14,606 bases of DNA from a virus (taxonomy: Duplodnaviria; Heunggongvirae; Uroviricota; Caudoviricetes): the IMG/VR virus record IMGVR_UViG_2703718848_000009. One strand, written 5' to 3'. Within the stretch, counting starts at the first letter, position 1; every line of letters begins with the position of its first letter. A program made the translations under genes and the position numbers. Below the pieces are notes generated by a model. That model did no database searches. It had not been told where the DNA came from and worked only from the letters and a program-made list of their open reading frames with translations. Positions 350 to 11,768 of the stretch are shown in pieces.

Positions 350-1129
350 TTATTCATGAAACTCCTTCCAAGTATTAATATATTCTTTAACTGCTTCATT
401 ATCCGAAAATCCTTTTCCACCATCAATAATATATTTTACGTTTTTCCAGTCCATATACACAGACACAATAGCAACTAAATTTACCAGTTTAACTGGTAAC
501 ATATTCATAAAAATATCTAAGTAGTAATCTTGATGTTCTTCAGGGCATTTATCCTTAACAACCTTAAAAACAACATATACACATCGCACCATGGAAAATA
601 TGGCCATAGATGAATCCTCATCAATTTTATTTATGTAATTTTTAACATCCTCAATTTCGCAAGCTCCTTTTTCATCTATTTGTTTCTCAATAAAAGCCCA
701 TATTGCCTCTTCCAATTCACTAACAGCAGCAGATGAGCGGTATTCTTTTCCGTTAATGTTAATAGTAAAACAACTAAACTCCTCTCTTTCTGAAGAGATA
801 AGGTTATAAAAACCGTCTTCAAACCGTTTTAGAAGAACGTCTTTCTCTTGTCTTCTTTCGTCTTTAATTAGTTGCTCGTTTGCTTCTCGTTGAAGTTTCA
901 AGGAATTAATGAGCATAACAATTGTAATGAAGGTCAAGATAGGATTAAGCACACCTCCTACAAAATCCCCGAAAGTGCCCCAATCACCTTTATCATTGGA
1001 AAAACCCATCCATTTGCTAGCATTAAAGATATCTAACGGGCTATCCCAATGATTGAAATGAGAAAAGTAAAAATACCATACAATAGCTATTAATATAAGT
1101 GAAATAACTTTGATTGAGGGCATCTTCAT
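350..1129 (-). CDS. Hypothetical membrane-anchored protein with two N-terminal transmembrane helices and a ~180-aa soluble C-terminal domain; candidate effector of a two-gene cargo system
   Basis: 259-codon ORF. Hydrophobic segments VISLILIAIVWYFYF and FVGGVLNPILTFITIVMLINSL near the N-terminus. ATG at 1129-1127 lies immediately after the TAA of the upstream gene (TAA-ATG juxtaposed). Strongly AT-rich compared with the core of the island. No recognisable catalytic motif. Confidence 0.7.
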   Translation of the reverse strand: MKMPSIKVISLILIAIVWYFYFSHFNHWDSPLDIFNASKWMGFSNDKGDWGTFGDFVGGVLNPILTFITIVMLINSLKLQREANEQLIKDERRQEKDVLLKRFEDGFYNLISSEREEFSCFTININGKEYRSSAAVSELEEAIWAFIEKQIDEKGACEIEDVKNYINKIDEDSSMAIFSMVRCVYVVFKVVKDKCPEEHQDYYLDIFMNMLPVKLVNLVAIVSVYMDWKNVKYIIDGGKGFSDNEAVKEYINTWKEFHE

Positions 1130-1957
1130 TTACAATATTTCTCTAATTATATAAGCCTTGAGCTCTCCAATATGATCGCGCAACTCATAAGCAGAAATGG
1201 TTATAGGTATAAAAGCGTCTTTACCACCTCTGTTATTCCTATCAAGATTCCTTGAAAACTTATTTTTCTGAGACTGCAATACATGTTCCCAATTAAGATG
1301 GTGTCTAAAGGCAATTGAATCTGACTGTCTATCTAATAACAATCGACCAGTTCCTGTTAACATATTAAACCTAGTTATAATAACATTTTCTTCTACTGGT
1401 TGAGCAGATTCATGCTCTACATTGATATTGAAGAGCGTCTGCGTATCCATTTTAGCAACAACTAATTTTTTAGTTGGTGTTCTTCTTCTCAGAAGTACAT
1501 TATATTTTTGTTTCTCAACTGTTTTATGTAAATTCTGTATAGGTTCCTGAATTCTTATCAAAAGTTGTTTTTCAAGCGGTTTAAGACGCTCTACTAAGTC
1601 GATTGCTTTCTGGCTCTTAAGATGGTGAGCTATTCCCATTCCTTTAGAGATGTAATATGACATAACATCAAAAAAAACACCCCTGCCAATTTCATTAAAT
1701 CTTTTTATCTTTTCAGGATCATCAATTCTAAGTTCAAAATTTTGTCCAAACGATCCATCAAATGTATGTTTGAACATATTCCTAAGCCCATGTATAGAGG
1801 TTGATTTTTTGGGGACTGAATCATCTAAAATAGTGCTTGTTGTAATTTGGGTGATGTCAGAAGCTCCAGCAAAAACCTTTATGCCGGAATTCATTTCTAA
1901 TTCTTCAAAATCGTTCTGCCCATGTCCAACCACAACATCCATATCTAAGTTTATCAT
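1130..1957 (-). CDS. Hypothetical cytoplasmic protein (275 aa), first gene of the AT-rich two-gene cargo operon; candidate sensor/partner
   Basis: 275-codon ORF with ATG at 1957 and an AAAGAG Shine-Dalgarno-like element ~7 nt upstream. No predicted TM segments. N-terminal hydrophobic strand plus Gly-rich loop (DVVVGHGQ). Translationally coupled to the downstream membrane protein. No confident family assignment from motif inspection. Confidence 0.7.
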   Translation of the reverse strand: MINLDMDVVVGHGQNDFEELEMNSGIKVFAGASDITQITTSTILDDSVPKKSTSIHGLRNMFKHTFDGSFGQNFELRIDDPEKIKRFNEIGRGVFFDVMSYYISKGMGIAHHLKSQKAIDLVERLKPLEKQLLIRIQEPIQNLHKTVEKQKYNVLLRRRTPTKKLVVAKMDTQTLFNINVEHESAQPVEENVIITRFNMLTGTGRLLLDRQSDSIAFRHHLNWEHVLQSQKNKFSRNLDRNNRGGKDAFIPITISAYELRDHIGELKAYIIREIL

Positions 1958-2182: not shown

Positions 2183-2440
2183 TTGACAGATGCATCCAAC
2201 GATCTGCACATAAAGTTTTCTAAAGCGGCGCGGTTGACACACTNNCGAAAAACCTTATCAAACCTTAGCATTTCTAAGCATAGCAACTTGACACTTTTCG
2301 CGATTTTTTCGGCTTTTTGACGTGGTAAATCTGGCACAAACCCAGTAATGGCGGGGATTACAGCGAGGTTGACACTTTTTCGCGTTCAGAGTGTAAAGTG
2401 TCAACCTGGCAAGCTGCTCAACTTGACACTTTTTGATGTC
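2183..2440. repeat. Array of TTGACAC(T)TTTTCG direct repeats (4 good copies plus variants and one inverted copy); candidate regulatory or iteron-like region between the HTH gene and the cargo operon
   Basis: TTGACAC at 2234, 2288, 2369 and 2423 (spacing 54/81/54 bp), each followed by a T-run and CG. Related TTGACA/TTGACG at 2183 and 2318; inverted GTGTCAA at 2398. NN at 2244-2245 falls inside one copy. Confidence 0.5.
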
Positions 2441-3502: not shown

Positions 3503-3521
3503 GATGATCCCTTCTGAATGA

Positions 3522-3578
3522 CAATAATTGCAATTATTGCAATTATTGAAATAATACCATCGATAATTGCAATAAATG
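3522..3578. promoter_or_regulatory. Array of AT-rich palindromic repeats (CAATAATTG / CAATTATTG with TTGCAA cores), putative operator upstream of the 55-aa regulator gene
   Basis: CAATAATTG-CAATTATTG-CAATTATTG at 3522-3548 and ATAATTGCAATAAAT at 3564-3578, i.e. TTGCAA cores at ~9-bp spacing, directly upstream of the RBS at 3503-3520. Confidence 0.45.
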
Positions 3579-3780
3579 AAACAAAAAGCATCAATAAACC
3601 AACCTTCGGCACTAAATGCTCTGATTTTTCTGCAAAGGTATGGCAGATGTTGCTGCATGCAAACATAAAGGAAATAGCAGAAGAAACAGCGGGGAGTGAA
3701 AAGGGGAAGTTTTTATAAATACACGATTGTCGCCTCACTGCAGGTTAACAGCCACAAACCCCATGATAATAACTTGTTAA

Positions 3781-4104
3781 TTATTTCATCAGATTTTTCA
3801 TTATTTGCGCGATTGAGTACACAAGCAAAAACTCGGCAGCCGCAAGAGTATAAAAAACATAGATTCGCTTAGCCCACCGACGATGAAAGAACTCCTCAGC
3901 ATGGCCGAATGTTCGAGATACAAGCCATGCACCTACTGCACACAGAGCAGGTGCAATGAGCACAGTTATAAACCAGATTGTGATGCCCATCCCATGCCTA
4001 CTGATAATAGCCATTGGTATTGCAAAAATGAATGTTAGAGCAGCATTAGCTAATAGAATATCTTTTAAAGTATTTTCAATTAGTTTTTCTAGATTATCTT
4101 TCAT
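3781..4104 (-). CDS. Small integral membrane protein (107 aa, about three predicted TM helices)
   Basis: Hydrophobic stretches ALTFIFAIPMAIIS, ITIWFITVLIAPALCAVGAWLV and YVFYTLAAAEFLLVYSIAQI. AT-rich coding sequence. The RBS contains a G7 tract (C7 on the plus strand, 4110-4116). Confidence 0.65.
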   Translation of the reverse strand: MKDNLEKLIENTLKDILLANAALTFIFAIPMAIISRHGMGITIWFITVLIAPALCAVGAWLVSRTFGHAEEFFHRRWAKRIYVFYTLAAAEFLLVYSIAQIMKNLMK

Positions 4105-4130
4105 CTAATCCCCCCCGTTGAACATTAATA

Positions 4131-4157
4131 TATAAAAGCCCCTTACTAAGGGGCTTT
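4131..4157 (-). terminator. Rho-independent terminator downstream of the lipoprotein gene
   Basis: Perfect inverted repeat AAAGCCCCTTA / TAAGGGGCTTT at 4135-4157. On the minus strand the stem is followed by TTTTATATATT. Lies 12 nt after the lipoprotein stop at 4169. Confidence 0.6.
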
Positions 4158-4168
4158 GCACGGATTGT

Positions 4169-5311
4169 TTAAAGGGAACTTTTTTTCGCCCCTTCAATTT
4201 CTTCCTGACAAATTTCGTCATTTGTAAATGAGTACTGCAGATAGACATATCCCTGAGTGGAATTGTTCGCTCTGGCCTCAATAGAGATAGTATCGATATT
4301 GTTTTTTAATGGTATTTCTTTTGTTCCCTTCCATGTGGCAGATAAGAAGCGTTCTTTTTTGTTTAGCCCCCTCATCCAGTCCTGAGGATCTTTCCAAATT
4401 GAACCAGCCAGCAAAAAGTCTGTAGTATCAGCCTTTCCATACAGAGAACTTAAAGAATTACTCAATTCTTCAAACTTGGATTTAAGAGCCAATCCATAGC
4501 TATCAGTATCAATATTTTTTCCTAAAGCCCGTATTTGACATAAACCAGCTTTCGGGGAGATCAACAAACCATACATTTCAAAATCTGCGTTTTGCTTCGG
4601 TAATTTATCAGAAGTATACAGATTCACACTGTCTGGTAGTGGCTTGAGCTTAGCACCGATCATATCTTCGATGTTTTTCTGTGTAAGACCGGCTTCTAAG
4701 CCAAACGGACCATCCGCTGGCGGGAGTAAAGGAAGTTGCCCTTGGGAATTTTTGGCTGTTACTTCCGTTTCAGTACTGTTTTTTGCGTCATTATCTTGTA
4801 CTGATGCCAGCTTAACTTCAGCGAGGCCATACTTGGCTGTGAGGTACTTTTGCTGCAACATTGCCATGGTCTGCTCTTCAGTGGCAACAGTAGATAATTT
4901 TAGTACCTTTATCAGACCACCACTATACTGACGAGCATCAGCTTTGGCTTCGTTGATTTTTGCATCTAAGCTGTCAATTTCAGTTTTAATTGAAGCCGCA
5001 AGCTCAGGATCAGGTTTTACTCCAGATACAACAACATCAATTTTGGCACCTGATTCAATAGCATTAATACGCTGTTCCAAAAGCGCTTTATTAGTTCCTA
5101 ATATTTCCAGTCTTGCTGTTGTCAGATTTTTTATCAACCCACCAGAAAACTGCTGGTCAACTTCCTTAGCTGCTGATATTTCACCTTCCGTTTGCGACAG
5201 TTCAGCTTTAAGAGCCGCTACTTCCTGTTTCTGTTCTGGAGTTAACTCTTCTGGCCCACATCCGGTTAACATTACTATACCGACTAATGTTGCAATTAAA
5301 GTTTTATTCAT
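4169..5311 (-). CDS. Lipoprotein (380 aa) with an internal tandem duplication
   Basis: Signal peptide MNKTLIATLVGIVMLTGC with lipobox LTGC. Two copies of a [QR]Q[FY]SGGLIK-containing segment (around residues 52 and 127). Coding sequence is AT-richer than the replication core. Confidence 0.8.
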   Translation of the reverse strand: MNKTLIATLVGIVMLTGCGPEELTPEQKQEVAALKAELSQTEGEISAAKEVDQQFSGGLIKNLTTARLEILGTNKALLEQRINAIESGAKIDVVVSGVKPDPELAASIKTEIDSLDAKINEAKADARQYSGGLIKVLKLSTVATEEQTMAMLQQKYLTAKYGLAEVKLASVQDNDAKNSTETEVTAKNSQGQLPLLPPADGPFGLEAGLTQKNIEDMIGAKLKPLPDSVNLYTSDKLPKQNADFEMYGLLISPKAGLCQIRALGKNIDTDSYGLALKSKFEELSNSLSSLYGKADTTDFLLAGSIWKDPQDWMRGLNKKERFLSATWKGTKEIPLKNNIDTISIEARANNSTQGYVYLQYSFTNDEICQEEIEGAKKSSL

Positions 5312-5445
5312 ATCCCTATTCCAAATGAAAATATTCAGATTAATCTTATCAGGAACCCAGATGCAATTGAATATTCATCTGCTCAGCAACGTAGTAGATT
5401 TCCTCAGAAAGCATCAACAAAAAACCAAGAGAATCCCATCCTCTG

Positions 5446-6594: not shown

Positions 6595-8391
6595 NNNNNN
6601 NNNNNNNNNNNNNNCTGGTAACCATCCATCAGCATCTTTATCTAACAGAACATTTGTGATCGTTCGCCCTTTATCTGGACCTTTAGTACATTTAGCCCGC
6701 TTGTACTCCTTTCCGTACTCAGCCATTGCCCCTGGCATATCTGTACCAAAGCGTGTCAGTGATACCGGTTTTCCCAGACCATGCGCAGACATATAAGCCA
6801 AATAAGCATGATACAGATATCGCCTCGGGCTAAATGGCACTATTTCTGCATTACCTACTATCATTCCCTCACATTTAACCAACGACATCAGATAACCGCA
6901 GAAGTCCACCAGCGAATCACCTTCACGCTTTATCAACAGTGCTTCTTCTGATTTTTGCTGCTCATAAAGTAGTCTTTTCGCTTCGTCCTGGTCGGCAAAT
7001 CGTGTAAGCAAATGGCGAATCACTACTGCCAGTTCCCCTTCTATCTTTTTCGCCAGCATCGGATCGCGTTCGTTCTCTGGTACAACCTCAGAGAAATTAA
7101 ATATTACTCGTCGACGCGAGATCCCCCCACTACGGTCGCTGAATGACATGGCATAATTGTTTACTACCAGCACTACCGCAGGAACGCGCGTGGAATAGGG
7201 CGCTTTGTGTTTCGGATCGATAGCCACCTTGTCACCGCCTGTAATGGCCTTAATCCCAGCACCATCACCTGCGTAGCGGGTCATGTCAGGCATGATAATC
7301 AGAGAATATCCCACCACTAACGCTCGTTCCCTCGCGTCTTCCAGCGCCTTCATGCTCGCCGATACTGTATTGGCCTTACCCGCCAGCATGGTACAAATCT
7401 CCGCCATCACACTTTTACCGCTTCCGCCCGGCCCCGTTACCTCAAGGAATAACTGCCAGTCGTACCGGTTCGCCAGTACCATGAATAATGCCGCCAGTAC
7501 GCGATCCGCTTTACGAGCATTATCCGCCACCGAACGACGCAACCACTTCCAGAAATTCGGCGCATGTGTTGCCAGCGTTTCCCCCTCTTCTGGCGGGCTG
7601 AACGGTAATTCACTGGCATTTAACAACCAGTCATTTTTGTTGTGTTCCCGAAAATTTCCTGTCCTGATATCAAAAACACCGTTACTGAACCCAATAAGAT
7701 TTCTGTCCGCTCCCCCCATAACAGGTAGACTCAATTTCATTGTCTCTACGGCAAATTTAATGGCGTTTTGCGAATAACTAATTTCGGCATCAATAAAAAT
7801 CTTCGCCATAGACCGCTGGAGTTCCTTATCAGATACAGGCTCCCAAACAATTCCGTTGTAATGGTGAACTACATCAGAATCATCATTTATCGCCAGTGCT
7901 CCTCCATAATGTTCAAGTAACACTTCCCCTCTCTGGCTGGCTCCCATCTGATTTAATGCAGGCTTGGGTAGACCACTATTTTTTGTAGCTAATTTCATCA
8001 CTGAAACTTCCCCGTGCTCAGCCTGTTCGCGGATCCGTTGCAGGTAGTCGCGCCAGTTCTCCGGTTCCTGGTCGGTGATACCTTTGTATAATTTCGCCTC
8101 CTGTACGCCAGCCAGCGCCAGCTTTTCAGCGATAGTATTGATCTGGATTGGCTCTATCTCCCCCGCGATATAGACACGCGCAAAACGGCGTTTCTCGTCA
8201 ATAATGCGGATATTCGCCAGGTCTGCCAGTTGCTTTGGCCCCAGGTAAACAGGAGGCACGTTATCGCCGTGTTTTCGTCCTTCACTTTCAATCCAGTGTT
8301 GAGCATGGGCGTAAGCATCCGTCCCGGCAAAAATGATTACCTCAGTGAATTTATCCTTCGGCTGATATTTTAGACTCGGTGCGTTTTTCAC
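6574..8391 (-). CDS. Phage/plasmid primase, P4-family (alpha-like) with SF3-helicase-type P-loop NTPase domain
   Basis: 605-codon ORF. Walker A motif VTGPGGSGKS and a downstream Walker B-like hydrophobic-acidic stretch (LIIMPDM). The C-terminus is interrupted by the N-run at 6595-6614 (X residues in the translation), so the 3' end is uncertain. Confidence 0.85.
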   Translation of the reverse strand: MKNAPSLKYQPKDKFTEVIIFAGTDAYAHAQHWIESEGRKHGDNVPPVYLGPKQLADLANIRIIDEKRRFARVYIAGEIEPIQINTIAEKLALAGVQEAKLYKGITDQEPENWRDYLQRIREQAEHGEVSVMKLATKNSGLPKPALNQMGASQRGEVLLEHYGGALAINDDSDVVHHYNGIVWEPVSDKELQRSMAKIFIDAEISYSQNAIKFAVETMKLSLPVMGGADRNLIGFSNGVFDIRTGNFREHNKNDWLLNASELPFSPPEEGETLATHAPNFWKWLRRSVADNARKADRVLAALFMVLANRYDWQLFLEVTGPGGSGKSVMAEICTMLAGKANTVSASMKALEDARERALVVGYSLIIMPDMTRYAGDGAGIKAITGGDKVAIDPKHKAPYSTRVPAVVLVVNNYAMSFSDRSGGISRRRVIFNFSEVVPENERDPMLAKKIEGELAVVIRHLLTRFADQDEAKRLLYEQQKSEEALLIKREGDSLVDFCGYLMSLVKCEGMIVGNAEIVPFSPRRYLYHAYLAYMSAHGLGKPVSLTRFGTDMPGAMAEYGKEYKRAKCTKGPDKGRTITNVLLDKDADGWLPXXXXXXXLVDRYT

Positions 8392-10984: not shown

Positions 10985-11768
10985 GGCTGTTTTCCTCCAT
11001 GCGACGGGCTAACCAACGCTGCGAAAGACGAATTAATTCAGCCTTCCGCTGGTGGTAGTCCTGGCCTAACTCAATCAGCGTGATATTGCTCTGCTCAAGG
11101 TAAGAAAGGTGCTCAAGCTGCAACGTGCTCATGTGGTCGCGTGGTTCGCCTGTAATGCCGTTCGCCAGTGCCCACTGTTTTGCAGTCATGCCACCCAGCA
11201 CGATACGCGCCAGCATGTTCGCTTCCGTGGTGTAGTGGTGCTGGAGTGTGTTTTTACCCAGTTCAGCCCGGTACGCCTCCAGCGCGGCACACATTGGCTT
11301 AAAGTAGCTGGCAACTGTGATACGGGCTTTCAGTTCCCGGCGTAACGCTGCGGAACGAACAGGCGCAACCTTGTGTAGCTCCTCCTCGCATTTGATAAAG
11401 TACTGGCGAACGGCGCGGCCCTGTTCGGTACGTTCGACCATCGCCAGTTCTTTCGCCATGTTCACTGTGATGATGTACTCAAGAGCGGTTTGCTGGCGAG
11501 ATTTTGCGCTCACCGGATCGGGTCGGCTCAAATATTCAACAACCTCATAATCCACGCCTTCCGTGAACCCGTATTCTTCAATGNNCCACGAACGGAAAAC
11601 GCGCCCTACACCTAACGCCTTATGTAACGCTCTGGCGCTAACAATAGTGGTTTCACTCCCGCCAATAACGCCGGAAATAATCGGGATAATTTCGCCGAAA
11701 TTTTGCAGATTCTGGTTTTCAGGCCGAACGAAGCCCCGCCCCTGTACGGGCGTTTTTGGAAATTTCAT
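10977..11768 (-). CDS. Phage-associated protein, possibly antirepressor/Bro-N-like DNA-binding protein (function uncertain)
   Basis: 263-codon ORF directly downstream of alpA. Contains ALHKALGVGRVFRSW, reminiscent of phage antirepressor N-terminal domains. One residue is masked by NN at 11584-11585. Confidence 0.6.
   Translation of the reverse strand: MKFPKTPVQGRGFVRPENQNLQNFGEIIPIISGVIGGSETTIVSARALHKALGVGRVFRSWXIEEYGFTEGVDYEVVEYLSRPDPVSAKSRQQTALEYIITVNMAKELAMVERTEQGRAVRQYFIKCEEELHKVAPVRSAALRRELKARITVASYFKPMCAALEAYRAELGKNTLQHHYTTEANMLARIVLGGMTAKQWALANGITGEPRDHMSTLQLEHLSYLEQSNITLIELGQDYHQRKAELIRLSQRWLARRMEENSHV

What the first reader, a model, noticed from the sequence alone, without database searches (positions are those of the whole stretch)
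3781..5311. AT-rich lipoprotein with internal duplication plus small 3-TM membrane protein: candidate superinfection-exclusion or envelope moron
A 380-aa lipoprotein (lipobox LTGC) carrying a tandem internal repeat ([QR]Q[FY]SGGLIK segments) is followed, after a strong terminator, by an independently expressed 107-aa three-helix membrane protein. Both are AT-richer than the core. Prophage- and satellite-encoded lipoproteins and small inner-membrane proteins often block phage DNA injection or mask receptors. The RBS of the membrane protein contains a G7 homopolymer that could modulate its expression by slippage, although 7 is short for true phase variation.
Basis: inference. Interest (0 to 1): 0.5.

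Follow-up and report, generated by a model that had tools for sequence, protein, structure and literature searches.

The report
Mobile lipoprotein moron in phage satellite
A 1.85-kb add-on gene cassette in an E. coli phage satellite encodes an exported lipoprotein of a large uncharacterised family plus a small inner-membrane partner; it probably protects the cell envelope against incoming phages, but this is untested.

Summary
The window carries a 380-aa lipoprotein (lipobox LTGC, internal repeat), a hairpin terminator, a G7 tract and a 107-aa three-helix membrane protein, all AT-richer than their neighbours.

The pair is a roughly 1.85-kb cargo cassette (about 3582-5436) in an integrase/AlpA/primase/ProQ/PerC satellite. 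Related islands have this slot empty or filled differently.

The lipoprotein is a textbook moron. A conserved promoter-like block of about 70 nt and a terminator travel with it into satellites, prophage tail modules (beside the tape-measure gene), a plasmid and chromosomal islets.

It is modular: lipid anchor, a two-hairpin stalk that carries unrelated heads in other proteins, a linker, and an alpha/beta head (pLDDT 96.7). The head also occurs alone as a secreted protein across phyla. It has no Pfam, PHROG or PADLOC family and no solved homologue.

The membrane gene was always found directly downstream of the lipoprotein gene and is probably transcribed by terminator read-through. Independent expression is not supported.

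In a sister satellite family the same slot holds the lipoprotein next to a true T4 Imm-family gene.

G-tract length varies between lineages (G6-G9, GTG5) but is fixed within haplotypes and absent in other genera, so phase variation is unlikely.

An anti-phage role at the entry step is the best guess and is unproven.

The parts
3582..5436 (.). Cargo cassette (about 1.85 kb), inserted relative to the empty slot of related islands
   Evidence: Homology to the empty-site island L004 ends at about window 3581 and resumes at about 5432-5437. In L004 only a short perC terminator region lies between those points. L005 carries a different filling, DUF2213 and others.
5337..5375 (-). Promoter-like block that travels with the lipoprotein gene: -35 TTCAAT 5366-5371, 17-nt spacer, extended -10 TGATAAGAT 5343-5351, palindrome AGATTAATCT 5337-5346
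   Evidence: About 70 nt upstream of the ATG are conserved in 10 loci whose surrounding genes differ, and homology between contexts starts there. Promoter activity is inferred, not shown.
4169..5311 (-). Lipoprotein gene, 380 aa (stop codon 4169-4171)
   Evidence: dN/dS is 0.05-0.08 against the Klebsiella, Citrobacter and metagenome orthologues.
5258..5311 (-). Signal peptide and lipobox (residues 1-18; LTGC, Cys18). Residue +2 is Gly.
   Evidence: Outer-membrane sorting is inferred from the Lol rule (no Asp at +2), which is established knowledge.
4817..5257 (-). Helical stalk (residues 19-165): two helical hairpins. Repeat 1 is 5069-5218 and repeat 2 is 4847-4996.
   Evidence: Repeat statistics are and helices 25-52, 59-87, 102-126, 133-161. 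The stalk occurs with other C-terminal heads, including VasI and a domain annotated as peptidoglycan-binding.
4724..4816 (-). Variable low-complexity linker (residues 166-196)
   Evidence: pLDDT is below 50. The alignment columns are variable. dN/dS is 0.1-0.3.
4172..4723 (-). C-terminal alpha/beta head domain (residues 197-380) with the GPFGL start motif. Cys258 and Cys368 are invariant among the 32 Enterobacterales homologues.
4134..4157 (-). Hairpin plus T-run terminator of the lipoprotein gene
   Evidence: A hairpin with a T-run follows the stop codon in most of the homologous loci compared, with or without the membrane partner.
4110..4116 (-). G7 tract, the Shine-Dalgarno-like element of the membrane gene, 5 nt before the ATG
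   Evidence: Alleles G6, G7, G8, G9 and GTG5 occur in relatives. Length is fixed within identical 1.7-kb haplotypes.
3781..4104 (-). Membrane protein gene, 107 aa, three hydrophobic helices. Predicted N-in/C-out, with a conserved cytoplasmic N-terminal helix and a basic loop.
   Evidence: dN/dS is 0.12-0.21. It lies directly downstream of a lipoprotein gene in every locus examined. Topology is inferred from the positive-inside rule.

Best explanation
What it is (well supported).
- The region is a discrete cargo cassette of about 1.85 kb. It sits in a slot between the replication/regulation module (primase, ProQ/FinO, PerC) and the orf55-led operon of a PICI-type phage satellite integrated in the E. 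coli chromosome.
- Its main gene is an autonomous moron with its own promoter-like block and terminator.
- That gene encodes a lipoprotein built of a lipid anchor, a two-hairpin helical stalk, a flexible linker of about 30 residues and a conserved alpha/beta head.
[quoted passage not shown] The stalk and linker would let the head reach into the periplasm.
- The 107-aa three-helix inner-membrane protein is an add-on found only in one Enterobacteriaceae sub-clade. It is most likely transcribed by read-through of the lipoprotein terminator, so it would be made at a lower level.

What it does (inferred).
- The cassette is expressed from the resident element and protects the cell at the envelope against incoming phage.
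- The most likely point of action is after adsorption, during periplasmic transit or inner-membrane DNA entry, rather than receptor masking.
- In this reading the head binds a conserved component of the penetration machinery or the cell-wall step it needs, and the membrane protein acts at the inner membrane.
- This would be a two-layer arrangement analogous to T4 Spackle plus Imm.
For: Cassette and slot.
- Related islands show the slot empty, filled with this cassette, or filled otherwise.
- 113 of 5426 complete E. coli genomes carry the cassette.

Moron anatomy.
- A promoter-like block is conserved in 10 different contexts.
- A terminator follows most of the orthologues compared.
- GC content is 0.40 against 0.56-0.59 for the upstream neighbours.

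Mobility between element types.
- E. coli-type satellites.
- Toprim-primase satellites.
- Lambda-type tail modules confirmed by Pfam (tape measure, gpM, gpL, gpK). The lipoprotein gene ends 64 nt before the tape-measure ORF in L092, and tblastn places the tape measure just downstream of it in five sister loci.
- A myovirus baseplate module.
- A plasmid, next to Abi and colicin genes.
- 51 IMG/VR viral contigs.

Both genes are functional: dN/dS is 0.05-0.08 and 0.12-0.21.

Export signals: an invariant lipobox, and stand-alone heads with Sec signal peptides.

Anti-phage company.
- In 10 loci of the sister satellite clade a PF14373 Imm_superinfect gene (E 3.9e-16) lies about 670 nt downstream of the lipoprotein in the same slot, with Abi_2 further on.
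- The terminal hotspot of the E. coli-type islands holds AAA ATPase plus DUF4435, SEFIR/TIR or ORC/CDC6-like genes.
- Stand-alone heads sit beside TIR, Mrr, or AAA_13 plus EVE genes, and beside integrases and transposases.

Precedents.
- The HK97 gene 15 moron lies between the tail assembly chaperone and tape-measure genes and blocks DNA entry (PMC3594210).
- T4 Spackle is a periplasmic inhibitor of the gp5 tail lysozyme (PMC7677548).
Against: - No experiment bears on function.
- Neither protein matches any PADLOC, PHROG, Pfam or NCBIfam family.
- The membrane protein is not a detectable Imm relative (hhalign probability 0.1%).
- Strong purifying selection and about 40% identity of the head between E. 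coli and Deferribacter or Thiocapsa are unusual for proteins in an arms race with variable phage parts.
- Cargo slots collect unrelated genes, so adjacency to Imm, Abi or PARIS-like genes is weak evidence.
- tblastn found no relative in 50,697 sequenced phage genomes.
- In the four loci whose flanking genes were identified, L023, L027, L028 and L108, the gene lies among housekeeping genes.
- The predicted topology leaves the membrane protein almost no periplasmic surface with which to touch the lipoprotein.
Confidence: 0.45

Rival explanations
1. Periplasmic immunity or inhibitor protein against non-phage envelope attack, such as T6SS or Rhs effectors, colicins or bacteriocins, or lysozyme-type peptidoglycan hydrolases. 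The head would neutralise a conserved toxin or enzyme and the stalk would position it.
- One relative fuses the same stalk to a T6SS VasI domain.
- A Paracoccus relative of the stalk is annotated as peptidoglycan-binding.
- The Enterobacter plasmid copy lies 2.8 kb from a colicin-like tRNase bacteriocin and its immunity gene.
- Cross-phylum conservation of the head suits a conserved target.
Against: - No toxin or effector gene was recognised beside the lipoprotein or the stand-alone head in the loci inspected.
- There are no arrays of paralogous copies, as in orphan-immunity islands.
- The preferred carriers are phage satellites and prophage tail modules.
Confidence: 0.2
2. Lysogenic-conversion factor for host fitness or virulence, unrelated to phage or toxin defence. 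Examples would be serum resistance or envelope robustness, like lambda Bor or TraT, or an envelope-stress or peptidoglycan-associated function.
For: - Lipoprotein morons with such roles exist, for example lambda Bor (cited in PMC3594210).
- The island also carries PerC and ProQ/FinO regulators.
- Strong purifying selection and the occurrence of the gene among housekeeping genes in some species fit a housekeeping-like envelope role.
Against: - There is no homology to Bor, Iss or TraT families, and no family match at all.
- Stand-alone heads occur in environmental bacteria such as Deferribacter, Thiocapsa and Litorilituus, where serum resistance is irrelevant.
- The company kept in cargo slots is mostly anti-phage.
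Confidence: 0.15
3. One reading: an outer-membrane lipoprotein that masks a phage receptor (Cor, Llp or TraT style), with expression of the separately transcribed membrane partner switched by slippage of the G7 tract.
For: - It is a lipoprotein with the default outer-membrane sorting signal.
- Tract length does differ among close relatives, from G6 to G9.
Against: - The head is conserved across phyla that do not share receptors.
- The mature protein is about 362 aa, with a stalk and linker that point away from the membrane. Cor and Llp are small (own knowledge).
- All seven multi-member 1.7-kb haplotypes have a single tract length.
- The tract is in the 5' leader, not in an ORF or between -35 and -10. 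Changes in length do not move its 3' end relative to the ATG.
- The tract is absent from the Citrobacter, Klebsiella and Edwardsiella versions.
- There is no room for a promoter and no conserved one between the terminator and the ATG.
Confidence: 0.08
4. A function in the satellite's own life cycle, such as helper-phage interference, packaging, or lysis (a spanin- or holin-like pair).
For: - The cassette sits between the replication module and the putative packaging genes; orf202 has a terminase-small-subunit-like HTH.
- The pair, a lipoprotein plus a small membrane protein, superficially recalls spanins or holins.
Against: - The slot is empty in otherwise near-identical satellites.
- The same gene sits in prophage tail modules, a plasmid and chromosomal islets.
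- No endolysin or other lysis gene was recognised among the window proteins scanned.
- The protein is far larger than o-spanins, and the partner lacks the charged C-terminus typical of holins (sequence; holin and spanin features from own knowledge).
Confidence: 0.05

Closest known systems
HK97 gene 15 moron (gp15 superinfection exclusion protein)
   Same: It is a self-contained moron with its own promoter and terminator and atypical GC. In lambdoid prophage relatives the lipoprotein gene lies immediately next to the tape-measure gene, the region where HK97 gene 15 sits (PMC3594210). The product is an envelope protein made by a resident element.
   Different: gp15 is a small inner-membrane protein of the YebO family (PMC3594210). 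The protein here is a 380-aa lipoprotein with no detectable homology to it. Exclusion activity has not been tested for this family.
Phage T4 Imm plus Spackle (two-layer superinfection exclusion)
   Same: A periplasmic component is combined with a small inner-membrane component. In a sister satellite family the lipoprotein sits beside a genuine Imm-family (PF14373) gene in the same slot. Spackle acts in the periplasm on the tail lysozyme (PMC7677548).
   Different: The window's membrane protein is not an Imm relative. The lipoprotein returned no match to any T4 or other phage record and is far larger than Spackle (own knowledge). T4 makes these proteins early in lytic infection, not from a resident element.
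Ltp of Streptococcus thermophilus phage TP-J34
   Same: It is a prophage-encoded lipoprotein involved in superinfection exclusion (PMC3952083). It has a lipid anchor, a spacer and tandem helical repeat domains, and it is reported to act at DNA injection via the tape measure (own knowledge).
   Different: The host is Gram-positive. Ltp has no extra head domain. No homology was detected.
Cor (phi80, N15, HK022) and Llp (T5) lipoproteins
   Same: They are phage-encoded lipoproteins that exclude other phages. [quoted passage not shown]
   Different: They are very small and act by binding the FhuA receptor. The protein here is about five times larger, has a stalk, linker and head, matches no PHROG family, and has a head conserved across phyla that do not share such receptors.
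Mog1/PsbP/DcrB-like and START-like alpha/beta sandwich folds

Membership tests
Moron (Juhala/Hendrix definition, as summarised in PMC3594210) | Extra DNA present in one element and absent from close relatives at the same position | tested here: met
   The slot is empty in L004 and filled differently in L005. Boundaries are about 3582 and 5436.
Moron (Juhala/Hendrix definition, as summarised in PMC3594210) | Own terminator | tested here: met
   A hairpin plus T-run lies at 4134-4157. An equivalent structure follows the stop codon in most of the loci compared.
Moron (Juhala/Hendrix definition, as summarised in PMC3594210) | Own promoter | tested here: inconclusive
   A conserved block (-35 TTCAAT, 17 nt, extended -10 TGATAAGAT) travels with the gene into 10 contexts. 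The generic promoter scan did not flag it, and activity was not measured.
Moron (Juhala/Hendrix definition, as summarised in PMC3594210) | GC content different from the surrounding genes | tested here: met
   0.40 against 0.56-0.59 for perC and proQ and 0.48 for the primase. It is also the most AT-rich segment in the Proteus-type prophage.
Moron (Juhala/Hendrix definition, as summarised in PMC3594210) | Expressed from the repressed or quiescent element | not testable with these tools
   This needs RNA-seq or reporter data from a strain that carries the island.
Bacterial lipoprotein (Lgt/LspA pathway) | N-terminal signal peptide ending in a lipobox [LVI][ASTVI][GAS]C | tested here: met
   MNKTLIATLVGIVM-LTGC. 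G17, C18 and G19 are invariant in 32 homologues.
T4 Imm superinfection-immunity family (PF14373), for the 107-aa membrane protein | Match to the Imm_superinfect profile, or profile-profile similarity to members | tested here: not met
   No Pfam hit for 12 family members even at E up to 10. hhalign against the satellite Imm-family ORFs gives a probability of 0.1%.
Known anti-phage defence systems (PADLOC-DB v2) and phage protein families (PHROGs v4) | Profile match of either protein | tested here: not met
   No family matched either protein at E of 0.01 or better.
Spanin or holin lysis proteins | Small Pro-rich o-spanin lipoprotein paired with an i-spanin, next to holin and endolysin genes | tested here: not met
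   No endolysin or other lysis gene was recognised among the window proteins scanned. The lipoprotein is 380 aa. The cassette is dispensable in related satellites.
Phase-variable contingency locus | Homopolymer inside an ORF or a promoter spacer, with length varying within a clonal lineage | tested here: not met
   The tract lies in the 5' leader. Seven multi-member identical haplotypes each have a single length. Differences appear only between haplotypes 3-4 SNPs apart. Read-level heterogeneity could not be tested.
PICI-type phage satellite (context of the cassette) | Integrase, AlpA-type regulator and primase/replication module, about 10-15 kb, with no structural or lysis genes | tested here: met
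   Integrase, an AlpA-like HTH, AntA, an Icd-like gene, a D5_N primase, ProQ/FinO and PerC are present, and no capsid, tail or lysis gene was recognised. This matches the description of E. coli PICIs in PMC11773190. Induction and packaging by a helper phage were not tested.

The most novel reading that the evidence does not exclude
The lipoprotein could represent a new and widespread 'stalk-and-head' class of periplasmic exclusion factors. In this reading a conserved two-hairpin stalk tethered to the outer membrane presents interchangeable heads. The head found here, which is also secreted on its own in many Gram-negative phyla, would block a conserved step of phage genome delivery, such as the tape-measure or tail-tip lysin crossing the cell wall. 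Satellites and prophages would then combine it with different inner-membrane blockers, either an Imm-family protein or the 3-TM protein of this window, to build a two-layer barrier.
Probability: 0.15. Interest if true: 0.75.

Novelty: new variant of a known kind. Interest (0 to 1): 0.5.

Why it matters
Morons and satellite cargo slots are known sources of anti-phage and host-fitness genes. Attention has gone mostly to cytoplasmic defence systems at the terminal hotspots.

This cassette points to a second cargo slot that is rich in envelope proteins, in two satellite families. It also points to a large family of exported proteins that no database describes. That family has at least 2,400 clusters at 50% identity and no Pfam model, and it shuttles between satellites, prophage tail modules and plasmids.

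If the family blocks phage entry, it would add a common, transferable resistance determinant in E. coli, Klebsiella, Enterobacter and Proteus. That would be relevant to phage therapy host-range prediction. The modular stalk-and-head design would also offer a way to study periplasmic steps of genome delivery.

If the family does something else, it is still a well-defined, easily testable unknown carried by about 2% of complete E. coli genomes.

Tried and rejected
- Family assignment. Pfam, NCBIfam, PADLOC and PHROGs gave nothing for either protein. The only hits were noise-level LpoB and SA0632 signal-peptide matches. Permissive scans of 56 head domains and 12 membrane proteins showed no recurrent family.
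- Imm homology of the 3-TM protein was rejected.
- Conserved operon partners of the stand-alone head: none were found in five contexts.
- Spanin or holin reading: rejected, because no lysis genes were recognised and the cassette is dispensable.
- Virion or tail-assembly role: rejected, because the protein is exported by a lipoprotein signal peptide.
- Conjugative entry exclusion: only two plasmids in 72,556 carry a match covering nearly the full length.
- Cassette edges. A 17-nt imperfect direct repeat lies near them (3582-3598 and 5405-5421). Many equally good repeats occur in the region by chance, so I do not read it as a target-site duplication.
- Literature. Searches for the protein accessions and for satellite or prophage lipoprotein exclusion factors found no description of this family.
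Full report
**Observation.**
- The first starts MNKTLIATLVGIVM-LTGC. G17, C18 and G19 are invariant in 32 homologues.
- Residues 32-81 and 106-155 are an internal duplication: 34% identity, blastp E 2e-8, and a Smith-Waterman score of 76 against 30.3 +/- 5.6 in 1000 shuffles.
- A hairpin with a T-rich tail lies at 4134-4157.
- A G7 tract lies at 4110-4116 and ends 5 nt before the second ATG.
- The 107-aa protein has three hydrophobic segments.
- GC content is 0.40 and 0.39, against 0.56-0.59 for perC and proQ.

**Context.** The window is an integrative element.
- It carries an integrase, an AlpA-like HTH, AntA, an Icd-like gene, DUF4222, a D5_N primase, ProQ/FinO and PerC, then the two genes, then orf55, orf90 and orf202. 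orf202 has an HTH similar to that of a terminase small subunit.
- Two AT-rich genes lie at the far end.
- This is the gene set described for E. coli PICI satellites (PMC11773190).
- Identical or near-identical copies of the 1.9-kb region occur in 113 of 5426 complete E. coli genomes, always on the chromosome.

**A cargo slot.** A 3.9-kb query spanning both flanks matched 331 genomes, and 104 of them hold the whole stretch.
- In a spread sample of 60, four rows had both flanks joined in about 2.0-2.1 kb without the two genes. Three rows had a DUF2213-containing alternative.
- Alignment with an empty site (L004) puts the insertion at about 3582-5436. The empty site has only a short perC terminator region there.
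- The pair is therefore accessory cargo and not part of the satellite backbone.

**Anatomy of the lipoprotein.** AlphaFold on 32 homologues gives four long helices forming two hairpins. The SGGL motifs sit at the turns.
- The linker (residues 166-196) is disordered and variable. An alpha/beta domain follows it.
- Remodelled on its own with 56 diverse sequences, the head reaches pLDDT 96.7 and pTM 0.90.
- An exhaustive search of 1.84 billion representatives found 2456 relatives, 1584 of them at E of 1e-10 or better. The two halves occur independently.
- The head is most often a protein of about 200 aa on its own. It has a Sec signal peptide, and the mature end starts at the conserved GPFGL motif.
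- The stalk is found on lipoproteins with at least four or five unrelated heads. One of these is a T6SS VasI domain, and one relative is annotated as peptidoglycan-binding.
- No Pfam, NCBIfam, PHROG or PADLOC family matches. No solved structure is related by sequence.
- The fold class is therefore generic and the family is uncharacterised.

**The lipoprotein gene is a moron.**
- In 10 loci whose surrounding genes differ, homology starts about 70 nt upstream of the ATG. These loci include two satellite types, a plasmid, islands next to proBA, chromosomal islets and a myovirus prophage.
- That upstream block holds a -35-like TTCAAT, a 17-nt spacer, an extended -10 (TGATAGGAT in most loci, TGATAAGAT here), an overlapping palindrome and the Shine-Dalgarno sequence.
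- In most of the homologous loci compared, a hairpin with a T-run follows the stop codon.
- Carriers include E. coli-type satellites and satellites with a Toprim/DUF927 primase, where the gene follows the primase directly.
- Carriers also include lambda-type prophage tail modules. Pfam confirmed the tape measure, gpM, gpL and gpK. In L092 the tape-measure ORF starts 64 nt after the lipoprotein gene, and tblastn shows the same arrangement in five sister loci.
- Other carriers are a baseplate module, an Enterobacter plasmid, decayed islands next to proBA, and 51 IMG/VR contigs.
- This matches the published definition of a moron and the tail-operon position of HK97 gene 15 (PMC3594210).
- tblastn found no relative in 50,697 sequenced phage genomes.

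**The membrane partner.**
- Only 17 clusters exist.
- In every locus examined, the gene lies directly downstream of a 380-aa lipoprotein gene. These loci are from E. coli, E. ruysiae, Klebsiella, Citrobacter, Yokenella, a genome whose protein is labelled Edwardsiella, and metagenomes.
- The lipoprotein, by contrast, usually occurs alone, even at 86-88% identity.
- Only about 30-37 nt separate the terminator from the start codon. That stretch has no conserved motif and no promoter-like match. Read-through of the terminator is therefore the simplest route of expression (inference).
- By the positive-inside rule the protein is N-in/C-out. Its conserved N-terminal helix and basic loop would face the cytoplasm (sequence; inference).

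**Selection.** dN/dS is 0.05-0.08 for the lipoprotein (stalk about 0.02, head 0.03-0.08, linker 0.1-0.3) and 0.12-0.21 for the membrane protein. Both are functional genes.

**G tract.**
- Among the fetched loci the alleles are G7 (13), GTG5 (12), G6 (4), G8 (1) and G9 (1).
- All seven multi-member identical 1.7-kb haplotypes have one length each. Lengths differ only between haplotypes 3-4 SNPs apart.
- Citrobacter has a normal AAGGAG in its place. The Klebsiella and Edwardsiella versions have no tract.
- The tract is mutable, but it does not look like a switch.

**Function.** Nothing here demonstrates a function. The circumstantial evidence points to envelope-level anti-phage cargo.
- In the Toprim-primase satellites the slot between the primase and an orf55 homologue holds the lipoprotein, either alone (L084) or with other genes.
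- In ten loci those other genes include a small hydrophobic ORF, a second small lipoprotein, and a 107-aa protein that matches Pfam Imm_superinfect at E 3.9e-16. An Abi_2 gene lies further on.
- The terminal hotspot of the E. coli-type islands carries AAA ATPase plus DUF4435, SEFIR/TIR or ORC/CDC6-like genes.
- Stand-alone heads lie next to TIR, Mrr, or AAA_13 plus EVE genes, and next to integrases and transposases.
- T4 combines a periplasmic inhibitor (Spackle, PMC7677548) with an inner-membrane blocker (Imm). HK97 gp15 blocks DNA entry from the inner membrane (PMC3594210).
- I therefore favour a post-adsorption block with two layers.
- The window's 3-TM protein is not an Imm homologue, however.
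- The cross-phylum conservation of the head also fits the rival idea of an inhibitor or immunity protein against a conserved envelope-attacking enzyme.

**Novelty.** The kind of thing, a moron or satellite cargo encoding envelope proteins, is known. The protein family, its stalk-and-head modularity and this cargo slot are not described in the searchable literature.

Noticed in passing
window 350-1957 (- strand): Two very AT-rich genes (GC 0.33-0.34) lie at the end of the island. orf275 (1130-1957) matches phrog_13337 and gives a weak PADLOC PDC-M02B hit. orf259 (350-1129) matches phrog_8999 and has N-terminal hydrophobic segments. They occupy the position where related islands carry AAA ATPase plus DUF4435 (PARIS-like, L001), SEFIR/TIR (L041) or ORC/CDC6-like genes (L044). 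This is a candidate two-gene defence system.
   Followed up: partly
L075:11808-12131 (also L076-L083, L088): In Toprim-primase satellites a 107-aa ORF about 670 nt downstream of the lipoprotein belongs to the T4 Imm superinfection-immunity family (PF14373, E 3.9e-16) and carries a C-terminal zinc ribbon. It is flanked by a 54-aa hydrophobic ORF and a second small lipoprotein.
   Followed up: yes
L032:11841-15449; L075:13161-15965; L084:11805-14801: Islands with satellite-type gene content (integrase, AlpA, Ash, primase) encode a 930-1200-aa protein with a TMP_3 tape-measure domain (E about 1e-51 to 1e-54). It lies downstream of an orf55 homologue and a 108-aa gene. A tape-measure gene in a satellite is unusual and was not explained.
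   Followed up: partly
window 3517-3584: Overlapping direct and inverted repeats of the ATTGCAAT motif lie just upstream of orf55, in the conserved backbone, and are also present in the empty-site island. They look like an operator or regulator-binding array for the orf55-orf90-orf202 operon.
   Followed up: no
window 5337-5346 and the equivalent position in L013, L041, L002 and others: The palindrome overlapping the -10 of the lipoprotein promoter-like block is GGATTAATCC in most loci and AGATTAATCT here. The two changes keep the symmetry, which suggests a binding site for a dimeric regulator.
   Followed up: no
window 3582-3598 and 5405-5421: An imperfect 17-nt direct repeat (15 of 17) lies at the left edge of the cassette and about 15 nt inside its right edge. 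It may be chance.
   Followed up: no
window 2244-2245, 6595-6614, 11584-11585: Short runs of N (24 bases in all) interrupt the sequence. One lies near the 3' end of the primase gene.
   Followed up: no
L001:13847-14135: The perC gene next to the cassette is annotated as frameshifted in strain Res13-Lact-PEB20-37-A, while it is intact (95 aa, PF06069 E 1.3e-31) in the window.
   Followed up: no
window 3518-3718 (+ strand): RefSeq annotates a 66-aa hypothetical protein on the opposite strand, in the tail of the cassette and overlapping the ATTGCAAT repeats. It may not be a real gene.
   Followed up: no
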